From the UHGV virus genome UHGV-0046270: a stretch of 24,380 bases of DNA. One strand, written 5' to 3'. The position numbers and the translations under genes are program-made. This DNA comes from a virus. Numbering within the stretch: the stretch's first letter is position 1; each line of letters opens with the position of its first letter. The notes beneath the pieces were generated by a model, which worked only from the letters and a program-made list of their open reading frames with translations, did no database searches and was not told the DNA's origin. Of the stretch, positions 8,725 to 15,233 are shown one piece after another.

Positions 8725-9306
8725 ATGAACAACTCATGGTGGCAGGAACTAATGCATTTTTTCCTGCAAGGAATGACACTTAAACAGTTGATTCATATGC
8801 TAATCATCCTGATCATATTGATTATTGTTATGCCGGTAAGCGTAAAAGAATGGATAAACCTGCATAGTCCAGAAATCCTTCCTCATTACTGGATGTATTA
8901 CATCCTGTTGTTTTGCGTTAGCTATGTGCTTAACGGCGTTGTTAATTCCGCTTATCACGCTGTGACTGAAAGAATTGAGGTATTCGCTGCTCAGAAGCGC
9001 AAATCTAAAGAAGAAAAATATGTGCAAGATTTGTTTGATTCGTTAACTCTTGGAGAAAGAGCGTATTTGGCATTCGCTGTAGCCGCTAATAACCAGCTAC
9101 AAACGGAAAAGGGCGCTCATGAATCAATTTCATTGCTCAAAAAAGGACTCCTCGTTCGAAGGCCTCCTGCTGTTGGATATCCTGATACCGACCGTTTCGT
9201 TATCCCTGAAAGCTATAGACATGAGTGCTACATTAGGTTTGCCGGGAAGGCAGACAGCCTTATGGATGAACTTATCGCTCAGGATAAGCATGGCAAAAAC
9301 AAGTAA
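8725..9306 (+). CDS. sieB: SieB superinfection exclusion membrane protein
   Basis: 193-aa product with hydrophobic N-terminal segments (LIHMLIILIILIIVMPV, YWMYYILLFCVSYVL); plus-strand gene between ral and N as in lambda. Confidence 0.75.
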   Translation: MNNSWWQELMHFFLQGMTLKQLIHMLIILIILIIVMPVSVKEWINLHSPEILPHYWMYYILLFCVSYVLNGVVNSAYHAVTERIEVFAAQKRKSKEEKYVQDLFDSLTLGERAYLAFAVAANNQLQTEKGAHESISLLKKGLLVRRPPAVGYPDTDRFVIPESYRHECYIRFAGKADSLMDELIAQDKHGKNK

Positions 9307-9322
9307 TTAGCAAATGAATTTA

Positions 9323-9595
9323 TCATCTCGCCGTCAGTTGTTTTGATTTCCGGTAGCCTGCCGCGTAAAGAGCTACGTTCGGAAGACAAGTTGAACCTTC
9401 ATATTTTCTGGTCAACGTTGTCAGAGTTATCACTTCTGCTCTCATTGCTGGTTTGAGCTTGCATTGCAAGACCACTCGTGAAGGGGTTGGCCTGTGTAGC
9501 TTGTCGGAGCTGATCGCCTCCTGACTTTGCAGATTTGCGCGACGAGCTCTACGGCGAGAAGCTGCGGTGCCTTTAAATTCTGTTTTTCTGGACAT
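9323..9595 (-). CDS. N: N-type transcription antiterminator (933W/H-19B-like)
   Basis: 90 aa from ATG at 9595 preceded by GGGAGG SD; N-terminal arginine-rich motif FKGTAASRRRARRANLQ; sits downstream of nutL/pL. Confidence 0.65.
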   Translation of the reverse strand: MSRKTEFKGTAASRRRARRANLQSQEAISSDKLHRPTPSRVVLQCKLKPAMRAEVITLTTLTRKYEGSTCLPNVALYAAGYRKSKQLTAR

Positions 9596-9693
9596 GGATT
9601 CCTCCCGAATAAACTTTGGCGATGCAATCTCGAAGCTCCTCCTGAGACGGTTGCTTCGGCATTGCATCCCACAGCTTATGTGGTTGGGTGATC

Positions 9694-9739
9694 TGGCTTT
9701 TCAGCCACGTAGTCGAGAGTCGACGTTGTTTAAAGAGCC
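9694..9739 (-). promoter_or_regulatory. nutL: boxA-like GGCTCTTTA, 23-nt spacer, boxB hairpin TGGCTGAAAAGCCA
   Basis: Minus-strand GGCTCTTTA-aacaacgtcgactctcgactacg-TGGCTGAAAAGCCA; same architecture and spacer length as the nutR candidate at 12375-12420. Confidence 0.6.
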
Positions 9740-9784
9740 TGCCAGTCTGTTCCATTTGGCTTCCAGCGTCCTGCTGACGGTTAA

Positions 9785-9813
9785 ATAGTACGATATGTAC
9801 TTTACAAGATCAA
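9785..9813 (-). promoter_or_regulatory. Candidate pL with overlapping OL operator
   Basis: Minus strand reads TTGATC-17 nt-TACTAT; palindrome AGTACGATATGTACT at 9787-9801 overlaps the -10; related motif occurs in the OR region. Confidence 0.45.
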
Positions 9814-10000
9814 TACAATTTGTTGTAAGTTGGCGTGGTTTTTTATAACGCTTTGTATTTAATAGTGTTGTTTTTTAGCGTGGATGTATTGCCTCGGCGA
9901 TGTAAGGAGAGATCAGAATTGCGTGGTTTAGTGGGTTGCATCTATTTATTTTTCAATAAATATAATTGGTTATGTGTTTTTAGGTGGGCGAACGTGAGGC

Positions 10001-10026
10001 AAAGAAAACCCGGCGCTGAGGCCGGG
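10001..10026 (-). terminator. Intrinsic terminator ending the cI-downstream operon
   Basis: Hairpin cccggc-gctgag-gccggg (10009-10026) 5 nt after the stop at 10032, with plus-strand aaagaaaa (minus U-run) at 10001-10008. Confidence 0.6.
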
Positions 10027-10031
10027 TTGTA

Positions 10032-10784
10032 TTATGCTGCAAGTCTCTTAACCCAAGTCTCTCTTTTGGAGAATGGTAGAACTTGGCTTGATTCATGGAA
10101 GAGTAAGGAGAGTTGTTGCATTTGATCACCAATTGCTTCGCTGTCTATAACAACAAATCTGTTGTTATACTCCTCACTTGAAGCTTTAAGATCAATTAGT
10201 TTCCCAAGCAATGAGTAAGCACTATTCCAGCTTCCTCCGTGTTTCACGCTTGATGTAAAAACGTATTTAGGTATGTCGGTTTTTATTGTTACAGGGACGG
10301 TAATTTGATGTCCACTCAAGCCATATACGTTTTCACGAAGAGAAAGTGCGTCTCTAAGCTCTGTGTGATATAGATAATCAATAACCATACTTTCAAACTT
10401 TTCAGCTTGAACTGGCTGATACCAGTCTAACGACAAAGTTGATGCGAGTATACCAGCTCTAATTATGTTCGATGTAATCGCACCGACATCCTTTTCTGTT
10501 GCCCAAGCAATGATTTCTCCTCGAGCATTGAGTTCTGCGCCTTCTTTAAGCAGTAATTGTCGTATCTCATCAAGTCGTTTTTTGGTAAGCGAGATCCCTC
10601 TTGCCTCCATATTCATTAAGGCATCGCATCTGTCACTAACTAAATACCTACCATTGACTTCACGGATAAAGGCACCGACATGCTCTCCATCATCACAGTA
10701 AGTGAATGGACTGATAATTCTCAAGGTCTTGCCTATTGGATGGCATTCGAAACCTAGTTGTGAGATCACTGTTGAGCACATCAT
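10032..10784 (-). CDS. Hypothetical protein (250 aa), distal gene of the immunity-region cassette
   Basis: Long ORF in AT-rich DNA; start overlaps the upstream stop (ATGA); no Walker or other catalytic motif recognised. Confidence 0.6.
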   Translation of the reverse strand: MMCSTVISQLGFECHPIGKTLRIISPFTYCDDGEHVGAFIREVNGRYLVSDRCDALMNMEARGISLTKKRLDEIRQLLLKEGAELNARGEIIAWATEKDVGAITSNIIRAGILASTLSLDWYQPVQAEKFESMVIDYLYHTELRDALSLRENVYGLSGHQITVPVTIKTDIPKYVFTSSVKHGGSWNSAYSLLGKLIDLKASSEEYNNRFVVIDSEAIGDQMQQLSLLFHESSQVLPFSKRETWVKRLAA

Positions 10785-11338
10785 ATTCCAAACCCCATTT
10801 GCCCCGACTCATCTTCAAGCGGTAAAGGTATTCTCCCAGAGTAAGTTATGTTCAGATGTTTACAGAAGTAATTCCAATACCCTACCAGGTCATCTGGGTT
10901 TATGTCATCTTCGATTGGAAACGCTATTCTATCACTATAGTATCCAGCTTCTTCATAGTATACATGGTAGTGAGCACCGTAAATGATATCTTGGTACTTC
11001 GGATGATCGACCTTGTAACTATTCGTGTGTTTGTCAAAGTGATAGGTATCTACCGCGAAAACCCTCTTGTTATGATAGAAAGCAATAATATTTATTTTAG
11101 GGTAAGAAATCGGGTCATCAGGTTCTGAATCCTGATCTGGTTTCCATTTCAGTTCAAACTTTAGCCCTTGTATAGGTATACAATCCTCATCCAAGGGGAT
11201 GATATGGGCTTGTAGCCACATATCAGAGCGACTTGGTTTCTGTTTCCATTTAACGCCAGAAAAGTTAACTATTTTTTTACAATAAAGTACTTTATCAACT
11301 TCTACTTGGCTTGGCTGATAATCATCTATTTTTGCCAA
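10781..11338 (-). CDS. Hypothetical protein (185 aa), proximal gene of the immunity-region cassette
   Basis: Long ORF starting 39 nt downstream of the cI stop; aromatic/acidic-rich; no recognised domain. Confidence 0.6.
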   Translation of the reverse strand: MAKIDDYQPSQVEVDKVLYCKKIVNFSGVKWKQKPSRSDMWLQAHIIPLDEDCIPIQGLKFELKWKPDQDSEPDDPISYPKINIIAFYHNKRVFAVDTYHFDKHTNSYKVDHPKYQDIIYGAHYHVYYEEAGYYSDRIAFPIEDDINPDDLVGYWNYFCKHLNITYSGRIPLPLEDESGQMGFGI

Positions 11339-11377
11339 TGTTTACCGCCCTGTAAATTGTAGATAAAAGTGGTTTCA

Positions 11378-12079
11378 TCACCCAAACGTCTCTTCAGGCC
11401 ATTGGCTGGCGATAACTTTCCCCACAACGGAACAACTCTCATTGCATGGGATCATTGGGTATTGTGGGTTTAGTGGCTGTAGAAACACCTGACCGCTATC
11501 CCTGATCAGTTTCTTGAAGGTAAATTCATCACCACCAAGTCTGGCTATGCAGAAATCGCCGGGCTCAACAGCTTGCTCAGGGTCAACCAGAATTAACATC
11601 CCGTCAGGAAAGCTGGGTTTGGAACCTGTTGGTGCGGTCATTGAGTTACCTTCAACCTCAAGCCAGAATGCAGAGTCACTGGCTTTTTTGGTTGTGCTTA
11701 CCAATCTCTCCGCATCGCCTTTGGTAAAGGTTCTGAGTTCTGGAGAGAACATCCCAGCCTGAACATGAGAAAAAACAGGGTACTCATATTGTTTTTTAAC
11801 TGGGGCCGATGAGTATTCGCCAACAGGTGAAAATGTCCCGTCGTGGTTGAATGATATGTTATCAATACCAAGGTATTTAAACACCACACCAATATCACTA
11901 AGAGATGGATGACGAGATCCGCGCAACCAGTGTCCAATCCCACCCTGCGTCATACCTAGCTCTTCGGCTAACTTCTCTTGAGTTATGCCGAGCTCTTTCA
12001 TTCTGGATCTAGCCAGTTCATACCATTTCATTTTCATGTCCTTATTATTACGCTCTGTACTGGAACCATCCATGCACAA
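11378..12079 (-). CDS. cI: cI-type repressor (lambda C-terminal domain, heterologous HTH N-domain)
   Basis: Residues from [29 protein letters not shown] to the end match lambda CI; N-terminal HTH ([25 protein letters not shown]) differs; 29-aa N-terminal arm length equals lambda if start is 12079 (alternative start 12031). Confidence 0.85.
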
Positions 12080-12148
12080 TGTGTATTTTTACTTGTATTC
12101 GCAAAGTACATATTGTATTTTTTTATTCGTGTTTACTATGGAGGGCAT
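12080..12148. promoter_or_regulatory. OR region (pR/pRM with operators)
   Basis: Divergent cI/cro intergenic region; AAGTACATATTGTATT (12104-12119) resembles the OL palindrome; TACTAT -10-like at 12134-12139; GGAGG SD before cro. Confidence 0.5.
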
Positions 12149-12364
12149 ATGAGCAACCTACGAAAATATCGAGAGTCACTGAATATCTCTCAAACAACAC
12201 TTGCTAAGGCAGTTGGATGCACACAGGGAGCTATCGGACATTGGGAATCTGGTCGTCGCTTCCCAGACCTTAAAACATGCCGTGCTCTTGTTGCGTGCCT
12301 AAACAAGTTAGGCGCAAAAGTCAGTCTTGATGACGTGTTCCCGCCGGAACACAAAGCCGCTTAA
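12149..12364 (+). CDS. cro: Cro-like XRE-family HTH regulator
   Basis: 71 aa from ATG at 12149 after GGAGGG; HTH LNISQTTLAKAVGCTQGAIGHWESGRRFP shares the TQGxIGHW helix with the cI N-domain. Confidence 0.75.
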   Translation: MSNLRKYRESLNISQTTLAKAVGCTQGAIGHWESGRRFPDLKTCRALVACLNKLGAKVSLDDVFPPEHKAA

Positions 12365-12374
12365 TAAGCGGATC

Positions 12375-12420
12375 CGCTCTTTGTAACAACGGACATTCGT
12401 CCTACGTCGCTGAAAAGCGA
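12375..12420 (+). promoter_or_regulatory. nutR: boxA CGCTCTTTG, 23-nt spacer, boxB hairpin TCGCTGAAAAGCGA
   Basis: Read directly; paralogous to nutL in boxA, spacer length and boxB loop. Confidence 0.6.
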
Positions 12421-12505
12421 GTTCCAAGATATCTGACCAACTAAGGCCATATGCGTTTCCACGCATACCTTTCAACTAACTATTCACTATTGGAAATCTT
12501 AAGAA

Positions 12506-12802
12506 ATGGAAAGAACAAGTTACAGCAAACTATCACAGCGTGACGTTGATCGCGCAGAAACAGATTTACTTATCAATCTGTCAGCTATTACCCAGCGCGG
12601 TCTGGCAAAGATGATTGGCTGTCATGAATCGAAGATAAGCAGAACGGACTGGAGATTTATTGCTTCGGTCTTGTGTGCTTTCGGAATGGCATCAGACATC
12701 AGTCCGATTAGCAGGGCTTTTAAGTATGCGCTTGATGGACTCACCAATAAAAAACGCCCGGCGGCAACCGAGCGTTCTGAACAAATCCAGATGGAATTCT
12801 GA
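12506..12802 (+). CDS. cII: cII-like transcriptional activator (chimeric)
   Basis: 98 aa; C-terminus TNKKRPAATERSEQIQMEF matches lambda CII; N-terminal part divergent. Confidence 0.8.
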   Translation: MERTSYSKLSQRDVDRAETDLLINLSAITQRGLAKMIGCHESKISRTDWRFIASVLCAFGMASDISPISRAFKYALDGLTNKKRPAATERSEQIQMEF

Positions 12803-12835
12803 GGTCATTACTGGATCAATCCACAGGAGTCATTA
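12746..12835 (-). ncRNA. oop: Predicted OOP-like antisense RNA with its terminator inside the cII 3' end
   Basis: Minus-strand 7-bp-stem hairpin (plus 12754-12773) followed by U-run (plus-strand A-run 12746-12753); cII 3' end is lambda-like; 5' end approximate. Confidence 0.45.
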
Positions 12836-14432: not shown

Positions 14433-14719
14433 CGGGCAAAGAGGCAATTATTCATTACCTGGGGACGCATAATAGCTTCTGTGCGCCGGACGTTGCCGCG
14501 CTAACAGGCGCAACAGTAACCAGCATAAATCAGGCCGCGGCTAAAATGGCACGGGCAGGTCTTCTGGTTATCGAAGGTAAGGTCTGGCGAACGGTGTATT
14601 ACCGGTTTGCTACCAAGGAAGAACGGGAAGGAAAGATGAGCACGAACCTGATTTTTAAGGAGTGTCGCCAGAGTGCCACGATGAAACGGATATTGGCGGT
14701 ATATGGAGTTAAAAGATGA
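14429..14719 (+). CDS. ren: Ren (Rex-exclusion resistance)
   Basis: 96 aa MTGKEAIIHYLGTHNSFCAPDVAALTGATVTSINQAAAKMARAG... matches lambda Ren. Confidence 0.9.
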   Translation: MTGKEAIIHYLGTHNSFCAPDVAALTGATVTSINQAAAKMARAGLLVIEGKVWRTVYYRFATKEEREGKMSTNLIFKECRQSATMKRILAVYGVKR

Positions 14720-14744
14720 CCATCTACATCACTGAGCTAATAAC

Positions 14745-14776
14745 AGGCCTGCAGGTAATCGCAGGCCTTTTTATTT
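14745..14776 (+). terminator. tR2-like intrinsic terminator before the nin region
   Basis: Stem aggcctgc / gcaggcct with 8-nt loop, followed by ttttattt. Confidence 0.65.
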
Positions 14777-14792
14777 GGGGGAGAGGGAAGTC

Positions 14793-15233
14793 ATGAAAAA
14801 ACTAACCTTTGAAATTCGATCTCCGGCACATCAGCAAAACGCTATTCACGCAGTACAGCAAATCCTTCCAGACCCAACCAAACCAATCGTAGTAACCATT
14901 CAGGAACGCAACCGCAGCTTAGACCAAAACAGGAAGCTATGGGCCTGCTTAGGTGACGTCTCTCGTCAGGTTGAATGGCATGGTCGCTGGCTGGATGCAG
15001 AAAGCTGGAAGTGTGTGTTTACCGCAGCATTAAAGCAGCAGGATGTTGTTCCTAACCTTGCCGGGAATGGCTTTGTGGTAATAGGCCAGTCAACCAGCAG
15101 GATGCGTGTAAGCGAATTTGCGGAGCTATTAGAGCTTATACAGGCATTCGGTACAGAGCGTGGCGTTAAGTGGTCAGACGAAGCGCGACTGGCTCTCGAA
15201 TGGAAAGCGCGATGGGGAGATCGGGCTGCATGA
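14793..15233 (+). CDS. ninB: NinB (recombination protein)
   Basis: 146 aa MKKLTFEIRSPAHQQNAIHAVQQILPDPTKPIVVTIQERNRSLDQNRKLWACLGDVSRQVEWHGRW... matches lambda NinB; SD gagaggga. Confidence 0.9.
   Translation: MKKLTFEIRSPAHQQNAIHAVQQILPDPTKPIVVTIQERNRSLDQNRKLWACLGDVSRQVEWHGRWLDAESWKCVFTAALKQQDVVPNLAGNGFVVIGQSTSRMRVSEFAELLELIQAFGTERGVKWSDEARLALEWKARWGDRAA

What the first reader, a model, noticed from the sequence alone, without database searches (positions are those of the whole stretch)
10001..11338. Uncharacterised two-gene cassette in the cI-to-pL slot (RexAB position): candidate lysogen-expressed exclusion system
Two translationally coupled genes (185 aa at 10781-11338 and 250 aa at 10032-10784, ATGA overlap) lie directly downstream of cI on the same strand and end at a strong intrinsic terminator just before pL/OL. 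Lambda carries rexAB in exactly this position, and other lambdoid phages carry different exclusion cargo there. The DNA is visibly AT-richer than the flanking backbone, consistent with a horizontally acquired insert. Neither protein shows a motif I recognise (no Walker A, HTH, TM segment or nuclease signature), so the pair may be a new family.
Basis: partly seen in the sequence, partly recalled or inferred. Interest (0 to 1): 0.85.

Follow-up and report, generated by a model that had tools for sequence, protein, structure and literature searches.

The report
Candidate defence gene pair beside cI
Two overlapping genes of unknown function sit right after the repressor gene of this lambda-like E. 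coli phage, where lambda carries rexAB; they are a widespread pair that two earlier computational studies already flagged as likely anti-phage defence, but I found no experimental test of them.

Summary
Gene A (185 aa, 10781-11338, TTG start) and gene B (250 aa, 10032-10784) overlap by ATGA. They follow cI by 39 nt on the same strand and end at a strong terminator, 147 nt before OL/pL. The cassette is AT-richer than the window (39.6% vs 46.1% GC).

It fills a sharply bounded variable slot. Phages with the same cI and N carry unrelated cargo there.

The pair is not a wholly new family. B is DUF1828 (a fold like type III secretion chaperones and YbjN) plus DUF1829 (restriction-endonuclease fold, without the canonical catalytic residues). 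A is a distant, sub-threshold relative of DUF6978. Its confident model matches no solved structure, and it has an invariant His/Asp/Asn cluster. Together they resemble the untested PADLOC candidate PDC-M24. DefensePredictor (Science 2026) lists these exact proteins as predicted defence genes but did not test them.

In 80 of 80 viral contigs A precedes B directly after a repressor gene, across about 30 repressor types. A Pseudomonas phage has the same layout. The cassette is in 241 of 5,426 complete E. coli genomes, including CFT073 and Nissle 1917.

Best reading: lysogen-expressed defence cargo, probably toxin-antitoxin-like with A as effector. Defence itself is about 0.6 likely. The mechanism is inferred.

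The parts
10781..11338 (-). Gene A, 185 aa, TTG start. Soluble, acidic protein. Invariant K22, W31, R92, D97, N106, G121, H123, H125; H104 nearly invariant. One hypervariable loop (residues 69-80). Conserved but disordered C-terminal tail ...SGQMGFGI.
10032..10784 (-). Gene B, 250 aa. N-terminal DUF1828 domain (about residues 1-120), with a fold like type III secretion chaperones and YbjN. C-terminal DUF1829 domain (about residues 125-250), with a PD-(D/E)xK restriction-endonuclease fold but no conserved D...(D/E)xK.
10781..10784 (-). ATGA stop/start overlap coupling the translation of A and B.
   Evidence: Sequence. A 4- or 13-nt overlap is kept in 44 of 46 distinct homologous pairs.
9998..10028 (-). 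Intrinsic terminator (stem 10028-10007 plus U tract) that ends the cI-A-B unit. It belongs to the conserved backbone shared with phages that carry other cargo.
   Evidence: Homology with 2G7b and Stx phages runs up to 10028/10029.
10029..11377 (.). The variable cargo slot, from the cI stop codon to the terminator. It is delimited by abrupt loss of homology to phages with about 98.5-99% identical flanks.
   Evidence: Alternative cargo in the slot.
11378..12079 (-). cI repressor (HTH_3 + Peptidase_S24). It is the upstream gene of the presumed operon. This is context, not cargo.
9785..9860 (-). OL operators (9786-9802, 9811-9827, 9844-9860) and pL, downstream of the terminator. Context.
   Evidence: Transferred from the annotation of AP005153, with matching 17-mers also at OR (12046-12062, 12072-12088, 12104-12120).

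Best explanation
The two genes are accessory cargo of the phage immunity region. They are transcribed in the lysogen together with cI (from pRM, and pRE during establishment) and stopped by the terminator at 10007-10028, as rexAB is in lambda.

They most likely form a cytoplasmic, two-protein anti-phage system of the toxin-antitoxin / abortive-infection type.
- A would be the effector. It is a small protein with no match among solved structures, and its invariant H104/H123/H125 plus D97/N106/R92 look like a metal-dependent catalytic site.
- A's output would be kept low by a non-ATG start codon.
- B is made by coupled translation. It would be the partner that holds A in check and senses infection. 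Its chaperone-like DUF1828 domain would grip a peptide. The best candidate peptide is A's conserved, disordered C-terminal tail ...GQMGF. Its catalytically degenerate nuclease-fold DUF1829 domain would bind nucleic acid.
- A's single hypervariable loop (residues 69-80) may set target or trigger specificity.

**Shown:** the gene anatomy, the slot boundaries, the folds, the conservation patterns, the synteny and the prevalence.

**Inferred:** co-transcription with cI (about 0.85), a defence role (about 0.6), and the division of labour between A and B (about 0.3).
For: **Operon anatomy.**
- The gap between cI and A is 39 nt, with no promoter signal above chance.
- A and B overlap by ATGA, and the terminator follows B directly.

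**Cargo behaviour.**
- The swap junctions are exact.
- An identical cI and cro with a 97% identical N carry a cassette allele that is only 40% (A) and 51% (B) identical.
- The 100% identical cassette sits behind at least three repressor alleles.
- The cassette GC is 6.5 points below the window.

**Linkage to lysogeny.**
- In 80 of 80 IMG/VR loci A directly precedes B, and the next upstream same-strand gene is a repressor. There are about 30 repressor clusters at 80% identity.
- The same layout is found at 22% A identity (L023).
- In a Pseudomonas D3-like phage the pair also lies downstream of the CI-like repressor, though one extra gene intervenes.

**Defence indications.**
- Both subunits match the two subunits of PDC-M24, in the same order. 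PDC-M24 was picked because it is embedded in BREX, DISARM or type I RM systems.
- DefensePredictor gives the exact proteins log-odds 5.64 and 4.90, against a cut-off of 4. Its overall validation rate was 45%.
- The same slot in relatives holds a NYN-domain gene. In lambda it holds rexAB (established knowledge).

**Division of labour.**
- B lacks the conserved D/(D/E)xK residues.
- A has ultra-conserved KRVFAVDTY and HYHVYYE segments.
- A starts with GTG or TTG in 43 of 46 distinct genes, and with ATG in only 2.
- A's tail is conserved from E. coli to Pseudomonas, yet its pLDDT is below 50.
- The B family pairs with other upstream partners: FAM_01408>>FAM_00065. In the validated DS-6/HipAD system a DUF1829-containing second protein partners a HipA-like kinase toxin.
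Against: - I found no experiment on this pair. It is absent from the tested units of DefensePredictor, and no paper mentions the protein accessions or PDC-M24 in its main text.
- A's matches to DUF6978 and PDC-M24A are below threshold and cover only its C-terminal third.
- I could not check that the conserved His residues cluster in space, because model coordinates are not exposed.
- No model of the A-B complex could be run.
- DUF1829 belongs to a nuclease clan, so B could be the effector with a non-canonical active site (H159, D198).
- 55% of DefensePredictor candidates did not validate.
- Expression in the lysogen is inferred from gene layout only.
Confidence: 0.5

Rival explanations
1. It is a defence system with the roles reversed. 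B would be a nuclease effector using its PD-(D/E)xK-fold DUF1829 domain with a non-canonical active site (H159, D198, R209). A would be the sensor or specificity subunit, recognising phage components through its hypervariable loop.
For: - From my own knowledge, the NgoMIV/Cfr10I group already departs from the classic motif.
- DUF1829 is in the PDDEXK clan.
- PD-(D/E)xK was the commonest domain among validated DefensePredictor systems.
- A carries the only hypervariable loop.
Against: - No acidic residue or lysine is conserved at the expected strand positions across distant B homologues. K173 and K181 vary, and H159 is Arg in one member.
- No D...(D/E)xK pattern is present.
- A's most conserved residues look catalytic rather than recognition-like.
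Confidence: 0.2
2. It is a toxin-antitoxin addiction module whose main role is to stabilise the prophage by killing cells that lose it, with no real anti-phage effect.
For: - The genes are tightly coupled, and the upstream gene has a weak start codon.
- The cassette stays 100% identical in the decayed Nissle 1917 prophage.
- It is at least 99% identical in all 241 E. coli genomes that carry it.
Against: - Remote relatives were found embedded in RM, BREX or DISARM loci rather than in prophages.
- The slot exchanges cargo freely between identical backbones, which fits diversifying cargo better than a stabiliser.
- Many TA modules also defend, so this rival overlaps the main reading.
Confidence: 0.08
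3. It is an accessory of the phage's own life cycle, for example tuning repressor level, induction or establishment of lysogeny. That would explain why it always sits beside a repressor gene.
For: It is strictly placed next to repressor genes in 80 of 80 loci, and similarly in Pseudomonas.
Against: - It associates with about 30 different repressor types, including short non-S24 repressors. This argues against a specific partnership with any one repressor.
- Phages with the same cI do without it and carry unrelated genes instead.
- There is no DNA-binding HTH.
Confidence: 0.08
4. It is a lysogenic-conversion gene pair that benefits the host in a way unrelated to phages, such as stress tolerance or colonisation.
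For: It is present in the uropathogen CFT073 and the probiotic Nissle 1917. Lambda-like phages do carry such morons (established knowledge: bor, lom).
Against: - Neither protein has a signal peptide or a TM segment.
- The domain content (nuclease fold, PDC-M24 similarity) and the machine-learning score point to defence.
Confidence: 0.07

Closest known systems
PADLOC candidate PDC-M24 (two genes, M24A = DUF6978-like, M24B = DUF1828/DUF1829-like; Payne et al., bioRxiv 10.1101/2024.01.29.577857)
   Same: - Two genes in the same order.
- B matches the M24B models over their full length (E 4.7e-10; distant partners down to 3.5e-15).
- A and its relatives repeatedly hit M24A and DUF6978 models.
- Both are untested.
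   Different: - A's hits are weak (E about 5e-4) and cover only the last third of the model.
- PDC-M24 was defined from copies embedded in BREX, DISARM or type I RM loci. This branch lives directly downstream of prophage repressor genes.
Lambda RexAB
   Same: It has the same genomic position: after cI, same strand, before the terminator upstream of OL/pL. It has the same two-gene layout and the same expected expression in the lysogen.
   Different: - No sequence similarity: no RexA or RexB hit in the PADLOC scan.
- No membrane protein: RexB is a multi-pass membrane protein, whereas A and B have no TM segment.
- The folds differ.
DS-6 / HipAD (DefensePredictor, Science 2026, PMC13092281)
   Same: It is a validated two-gene E. 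coli defence system. Its second protein carries a DUF1829 domain and is proposed to partner and neutralise an upstream enzymatic toxin.
   Different: - The upstream protein there is a HipA-like kinase, not an A-type protein.
- The DUF1829 protein there has DUF3037 rather than DUF1828 at its N-terminus, and its DUF1829 match is only 78% probability.
BstA (Salmonella phage BTP1; Owen et al. 2021, PMC8585504)
   Same: It is a prophage defence gene. I recall it lying downstream of the repressor locus and acting by abortive infection; I did not open the paper to check the position.
   Different: It is a single protein with different domains. No PADLOC match was found.

Membership tests
PDC-M24 (PADLOC candidate) | Second protein matches the PDC-M24B profile | tested here: met
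   PDLC04540, E 4.7e-10, residues 2-249 against profile positions 4-254 of 256. Partners of distant A homologues score E 1e-6 to 3.5e-15.
PDC-M24 (PADLOC candidate) | First protein matches the PDC-M24A profile | tested here: inconclusive
   E 4.8e-4, residues 104-163 only (profile positions 79-134 of 148). Seven weak hits to three M24A models among the 20 family members. This would probably fail PADLOC's coverage rules.
PDC-M24 (PADLOC candidate) | Gene order A then B, adjacent, same strand | tested here: met
   The paper lists the cassette as FAM_00129>>FAM_00065.
PDC-M24 (PADLOC candidate) | Found embedded in BREX, DISARM or type I RM loci (the basis of the candidate's selection) | tested here: not met
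   Every locus examined here is in a prophage immunity region.
Pfam DUF1828 + DUF1829 architecture | N-terminal DUF1828 above the gathering score | tested here: met
   33.5 bits against a cut-off of 22.
Pfam DUF1828 + DUF1829 architecture | C-terminal DUF1829 (PDDEXK clan) | tested here: met
PD-(D/E)xK nucleases (active enzymes) | Conserved acidic residue at the start of strand 2 and (D/E)xK in strand 3 | tested here: not met
   The invariant residues in this region are G155, S157, G158, P164, W186 and D198, with H159 nearly invariant. K173 and K181 vary. No D...(D/E)xK pattern.
Pfam DUF6978 | Score above the gathering threshold (29.6 bits) | tested here: not met
   22 bits for A. Eight of 20 family members give sub-threshold hits, best E 1.1e-4.
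RexAB | Homology to RexA and RexB, with RexB a multi-pass membrane protein | tested here: not met
   No PADLOC hit other than PDC-M24 at E<=1. I assume, but did not verify, that this PADLOC release holds Rex models. No TM segment in either protein.
RexAB | Position between cI and the terminator upstream of OL/pL, same strand as cI | tested here: met
Type II toxin-antitoxin-like abortive infection | One protein is toxic alone and is neutralised by direct binding of the other | not testable with these tools
   Only indirect hints: a non-ATG start for A and coupled translation.

The most novel reading that the evidence does not exclude
A founds a new class of metal-dependent effector, with a fold unlike any solved structure. 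It is held by a partner that combines a secretion-chaperone-like domain with a dead nuclease fold. The pair is a toxin-antitoxin-like abortive-infection system that travels as cargo next to repressor genes in temperate phages from E. coli to Pseudomonas. It may be the unidentified factor of Nissle 1917 prophage 3 that Bury et al. (PMC5987069) proposed to explain that strain's complete resistance to lambda and Stx phages.
Probability: 0.2. Interest if true: 0.75.

Novelty: new variant of a known kind. Interest (0 to 1): 0.5.

Why it matters
**Reach.** If the pair defends, it is one of the commoner prophage-borne defences of E. coli. This allele is in 241 of 5,426 complete genomes and a second allele is in 61 more. 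Carriers include the type strain, CFT073 and the probiotic Nissle 1917.

**Biology.** It would give a function to three domains of unknown function (DUF1828, DUF1829, DUF6978-like). It would reveal a new effector fold. It would also make the cI-to-terminator slot of lambda-like phages a defined place to mine for further systems, since unrelated and equally uncharacterised genes fill it in sister phages.

**Practice.** It bears on phage therapy and on the safety of Nissle 1917 against Stx phages.

**Feasibility.** It is directly testable, because isolated phages that carry it exist (ev207, ev017, PhiR57_1, PhiR63_2).

Tried and rejected
- **RexAB, BstA or any validated system.** The only PADLOC hits at E<=1 were PDC-M24. 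NCBIfam gave nothing meaningful.
- **PDB sequence hits.** The hit of A to designed Kelch proteins (SAKe6, E 4e-6 to 1e-11) has no single stretch passing on its own. It comes from summed weak matches to a repeat protein, so I rejected it. B had no PDB sequence hit.
- **Canonical nuclease motif in B.** Absent.
- **Alternative slot cargos.** The 2G7b 283-aa ORF and the Stx-phage 173-aa ORF are unrelated to A or B by profile comparison (probability 0.1%). They have no Pfam or PADLOC hits.
- **Structured RNA.** No Rfam match in 9200-12500 at E<=0.1.
- **Internal promoters.** Promoter-like hits are at chance level (5 found, 6.3 expected).
- **Locus search with the diverse A alignment.** It failed because no stretch was conserved enough.
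- **Literature.** Nothing turned up for the protein accessions, for PDC-M24 in main texts, or for the phage names. Brenes & Laub 2025 (Cell Host Microbe) is not held, so I could not check it. It screened E. coli prophage fragments and might include this slot.

Full report
**1. What is in the sequence**

The window is a lambda-like temperate phage. Positions 9700-11400 are 100% identical to Escherichia phages ev207, ev017, PhiR57_1 and PhiR63_2. The surrounding gene order is the lambda one: exo-bet-gam-kil-cIII-ea10-ral, sieB, N, then the two genes, cI, cro, cII, O, P, ren.

On the minus strand, in order:
- cI (11378-12079; HTH_3 + Peptidase_S24).
- A 39-nt gap.
- Gene A (10781-11338, 185 aa, TTG start).
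- Gene B (10032-10784, 250 aa).
- A hairpin with an 8-bp stem, six of the pairs G-C (10028-10007), followed by UUUUCUUU.

A's stop and B's start share ATGA. The terminator stretch folds at -17 kcal/mol, z = -3.7.

The near-identical immunity region of the Stx1 phage AP005153 is annotated with operators. Transferring that annotation puts three OL operators at 9786-9802, 9811-9827 and 9844-9860, and pL -10 at 9785-9790. Matching 17-mers lie at OR. N is at 9323-9667.

The cassette has 39.6% GC, against 46.3% for cI and 46.1% for the whole window. Neither protein has a Walker A motif or a hydrophobic segment. No Rfam family matches the region. Promoter-like hits are at chance level. The two details to add are that A starts with TTG and that the terminator lies 147 nt from OL.

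**2. A sharply bounded cargo slot**

I compared the window with phages whose cI is about 98.5% identical (2G7b and the Stx1 phage). Homology stops at 10028/10029 and resumes at 11376/11380. These points are the base after the terminator stem and the cI stop codon.

In that interval the relatives carry different cargo:
- 2G7b has a 283-aa ORF.
- 2B8 has a NYN-domain protein.
- The Stx phages have a 173-aa ORF.

The 2G7b and Stx-phage ORFs are unrelated to A and B by profile comparison, and they have no Pfam or PADLOC match.

A prophage in E. coli 64EVA has an identical cI and cro and a 97% identical N. Its cassette allele is only 40% (A) and 51% (B) identical. Conversely, the 100% identical cassette sits behind at least three different repressors. 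The slot is a recombination hotspot for cargo, and the terminator belongs to the backbone.

**3. The pair is conserved and tied to repressor genes**

- B has homologues of 47-99% identity across Enterobacterales and Aeromonas.
- A's family is narrow. Only 20 cluster representatives score E<=1e-3 among 1.84 billion proteins.
- Distant A homologues (22-25% identity) are each followed by a DUF1828-type gene, with a 4-nt overlap in three of the four loci.
- In 80 IMG/VR loci that hold a B homologue, an A homologue lies directly upstream in all 80.
- The next upstream same-strand ORF is a repressor in all 80. There are 76 with an S24 Ser motif (GDSM, GNSM, GHSM or GESM) and 4 short HTH proteins. 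They fall into about 30 clusters at 80% identity.
- Species representatives of Izhakiella, Yersinia, Providencia, Xenorhabdus, Pantoea and Thorsellia all have A and B adjacent. A cI homologue was detected directly upstream in four of those seven loci.
- L023, with A at 22% identity, also sits right after an S24-type repressor.
- A Pseudomonas D3-like phage has a B homologue (29.5% identity). It also has an unannotated A homologue (hhalign 99%, E 7e-18) with the same GQMGF tail and an ATGA overlap. Both lie downstream of its CI-like repressor.
- Across 46 distinct A genes the start codon is GTG in 38, TTG in 5 and ATG in only 2. B overlaps A by 4 or 13 nt in 44.
- The allele in this window is in 241 of 5,426 complete E. 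coli genomes at 99% identity or more, always chromosomal and single-copy. Carriers include ATCC 11775, CFT073 and Nissle 1917. The second allele is in 61 more.
- In Nissle 1917 the prophage at icd is decayed (truncated integrase, IS element, early-left genes lost), yet sieB-N-B-A-cI-cro-cII remain intact.

**4. What the proteins are**

*Protein B.* It has Pfam DUF1828 at residues 26-110. Its AlphaFold model (pLDDT 84) shows two domains.
- The tool does not report which residues were aligned, so I assigned hits to domains from the secondary-structure order.
- The assignment agrees with published HHblits results for this exact protein: DUF1828 at residues 25-114 (99.5%) and DUF1829 at residues 155-241 (98.8%, PDDEXK clan).
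- The canonical catalytic residues are not conserved. Across distant members the invariant residues in this half are G155, S157, G158, P164, W186 and D198, with H159 nearly invariant. The lysines vary.

*Protein A.* It gives only sub-threshold hits to DUF6978 and PDC-M24A, limited to its C-terminal third.
- K22, W31, R92, D97, N106, G121, H123 and H125 are invariant, and H104 is nearly invariant.
- The segments KRVFAVDTY and HYHVYYE are the most conserved parts. A single loop (residues 69-80) is hypervariable.
- An HxH on one strand plus a His on another strand is the geometry of a three-His metal site.
- The last eight residues are disordered in the model, yet they carry a GQ motif conserved from E. 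coli to Pseudomonas.

**5. Comparison with what is known**

PADLOC's only hits are PDC-M24A for A and PDC-M24B for B, and the same holds for their relatives. PDC-M24 is one of 145 untested candidates chosen because copies lie embedded in BREX, DISARM or type I RM systems.

DefensePredictor (Science 2026) lists WP_000968518.1 (B, log-odds 5.64) and WP_001062368.1 (A, log-odds 4.90) from an ECOR assembly as predicted novel defence genes. These are the accessions RefSeq gives the 100% identical copy in Nissle 1917. The model's cut-off was 4, and 45% of the units the authors tested were validated. The contig carrying this pair is not among the tested units.

The one DUF1829 protein the authors did validate is DS-6B of HipAD. 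It is a second-gene partner of a HipA-like kinase toxin. The B family also pairs with another upstream family in the PADLOC tables.

Nothing links the pair to RexAB except its position. There is no homology and no membrane protein.

**6. Most likely mechanism**

The layout predicts transcription with cI in the lysogen. The position, the cargo behaviour, the domain content and two independent predictions make anti-phage defence the best reading (about 0.6).

For the mechanism I favour a toxin-antitoxin-like arrangement.
- A would be a metal-dependent effector, kept scarce by its weak start codon.
- B would be the coupled partner. Its chaperone-like domain would hold A, possibly by A's tail. Its degenerate nuclease fold would bind nucleic acid or sense infection.

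This part is inferred (about 0.3). The main rival is that B is the nuclease and A the sensor (0.2). Addiction, a life-cycle role and a non-defence benefit to the host remain possible at lower odds.

**7. Verdict**

The finding is real and correctly placed. It is a good experimental target. It is not a new family, and it has already been predicted by others. I rate it a new, prophage-borne variant of a known but untested candidate system, interest 0.5.

Noticed in passing
window 12460-12829 (gene at 12506-12802, + strand): Bury et al. 2018 (PMC5987069) cloned a 'phage repressor (pr)' gene, EcN_1294, from Nissle 1917 prophage 3. They reported that it lowered plating of lambda and Stx phages about 200-fold. 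That gene is the CII-family gene of this phage, not cI. Their cloning primers map to 12460-12478 and 12809-12829, and a qPCR primer maps to 12703-12720.
   Followed up: yes
window 8725-9306 (+): A SieB-family superinfection-exclusion gene (Pfam SieB, E 9e-22; PHROG 1301) lies just left of N on the opposite strand. The immunity region therefore carries a second exclusion-type gene close to the cassette.
   Followed up: partly
window 12031-12079 (-): The start of cI is probably annotated too far upstream. The ORF start at 12079 (TTG) and the GenBank start at 12073 overlap the operators at 12046-12062 and 12072-12088. An ATG at 12037 (MKMKWYEL...) lies just downstream of the innermost operator, and a homologous repressor in L053 begins MKMTWNEL.
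   Followed up: partly
L107 3486-4004 (PP083311.1, about 14515-15033): Pseudomonas phage VB_PaD_phPA-G has an unannotated gene for an A homologue (hhalign 99%, E 7e-18). It overlaps the start of the annotated B homologue by ATGA and lies downstream of the CI-like repressor.
   Followed up: yes
L016 4358-5209; L104 3539-4396; L017 4125-4646: Sister phages with the same cI fill the slot with other uncharacterised genes. 2G7b has a 283-aa ORF, 2B8 has a NYN-domain protein, and the Stx phages have a 173-aa ORF. These are further candidates for lysogen-expressed functions.
   Followed up: partly
46 distinct A genes in L002-L103: Gene A starts with GTG (38) or TTG (5), and with ATG in only 2 cases. 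The weak start codon is a conserved trait.
   Followed up: yes
L015 (NZ_JBHSON010000334.1, 518 bp): A 518-bp contig in an Actinomadura rugatobispora assembly encodes the end of A and the start of B at 64-82% identity to the E. coli proteins. This is most likely enterobacterial contamination of that assembly.
   Followed up: no
window 9323-9667 (-): The length of N differs between annotations. It is 114 aa from the first ATG here, 90 aa in PhiR57_1 and RefSeq, and 40 aa in 2G7b. RefSeq also calls a 60-aa ORF at 9573-9755 that overlaps the 5' part of the long N ORF.
   Followed up: no
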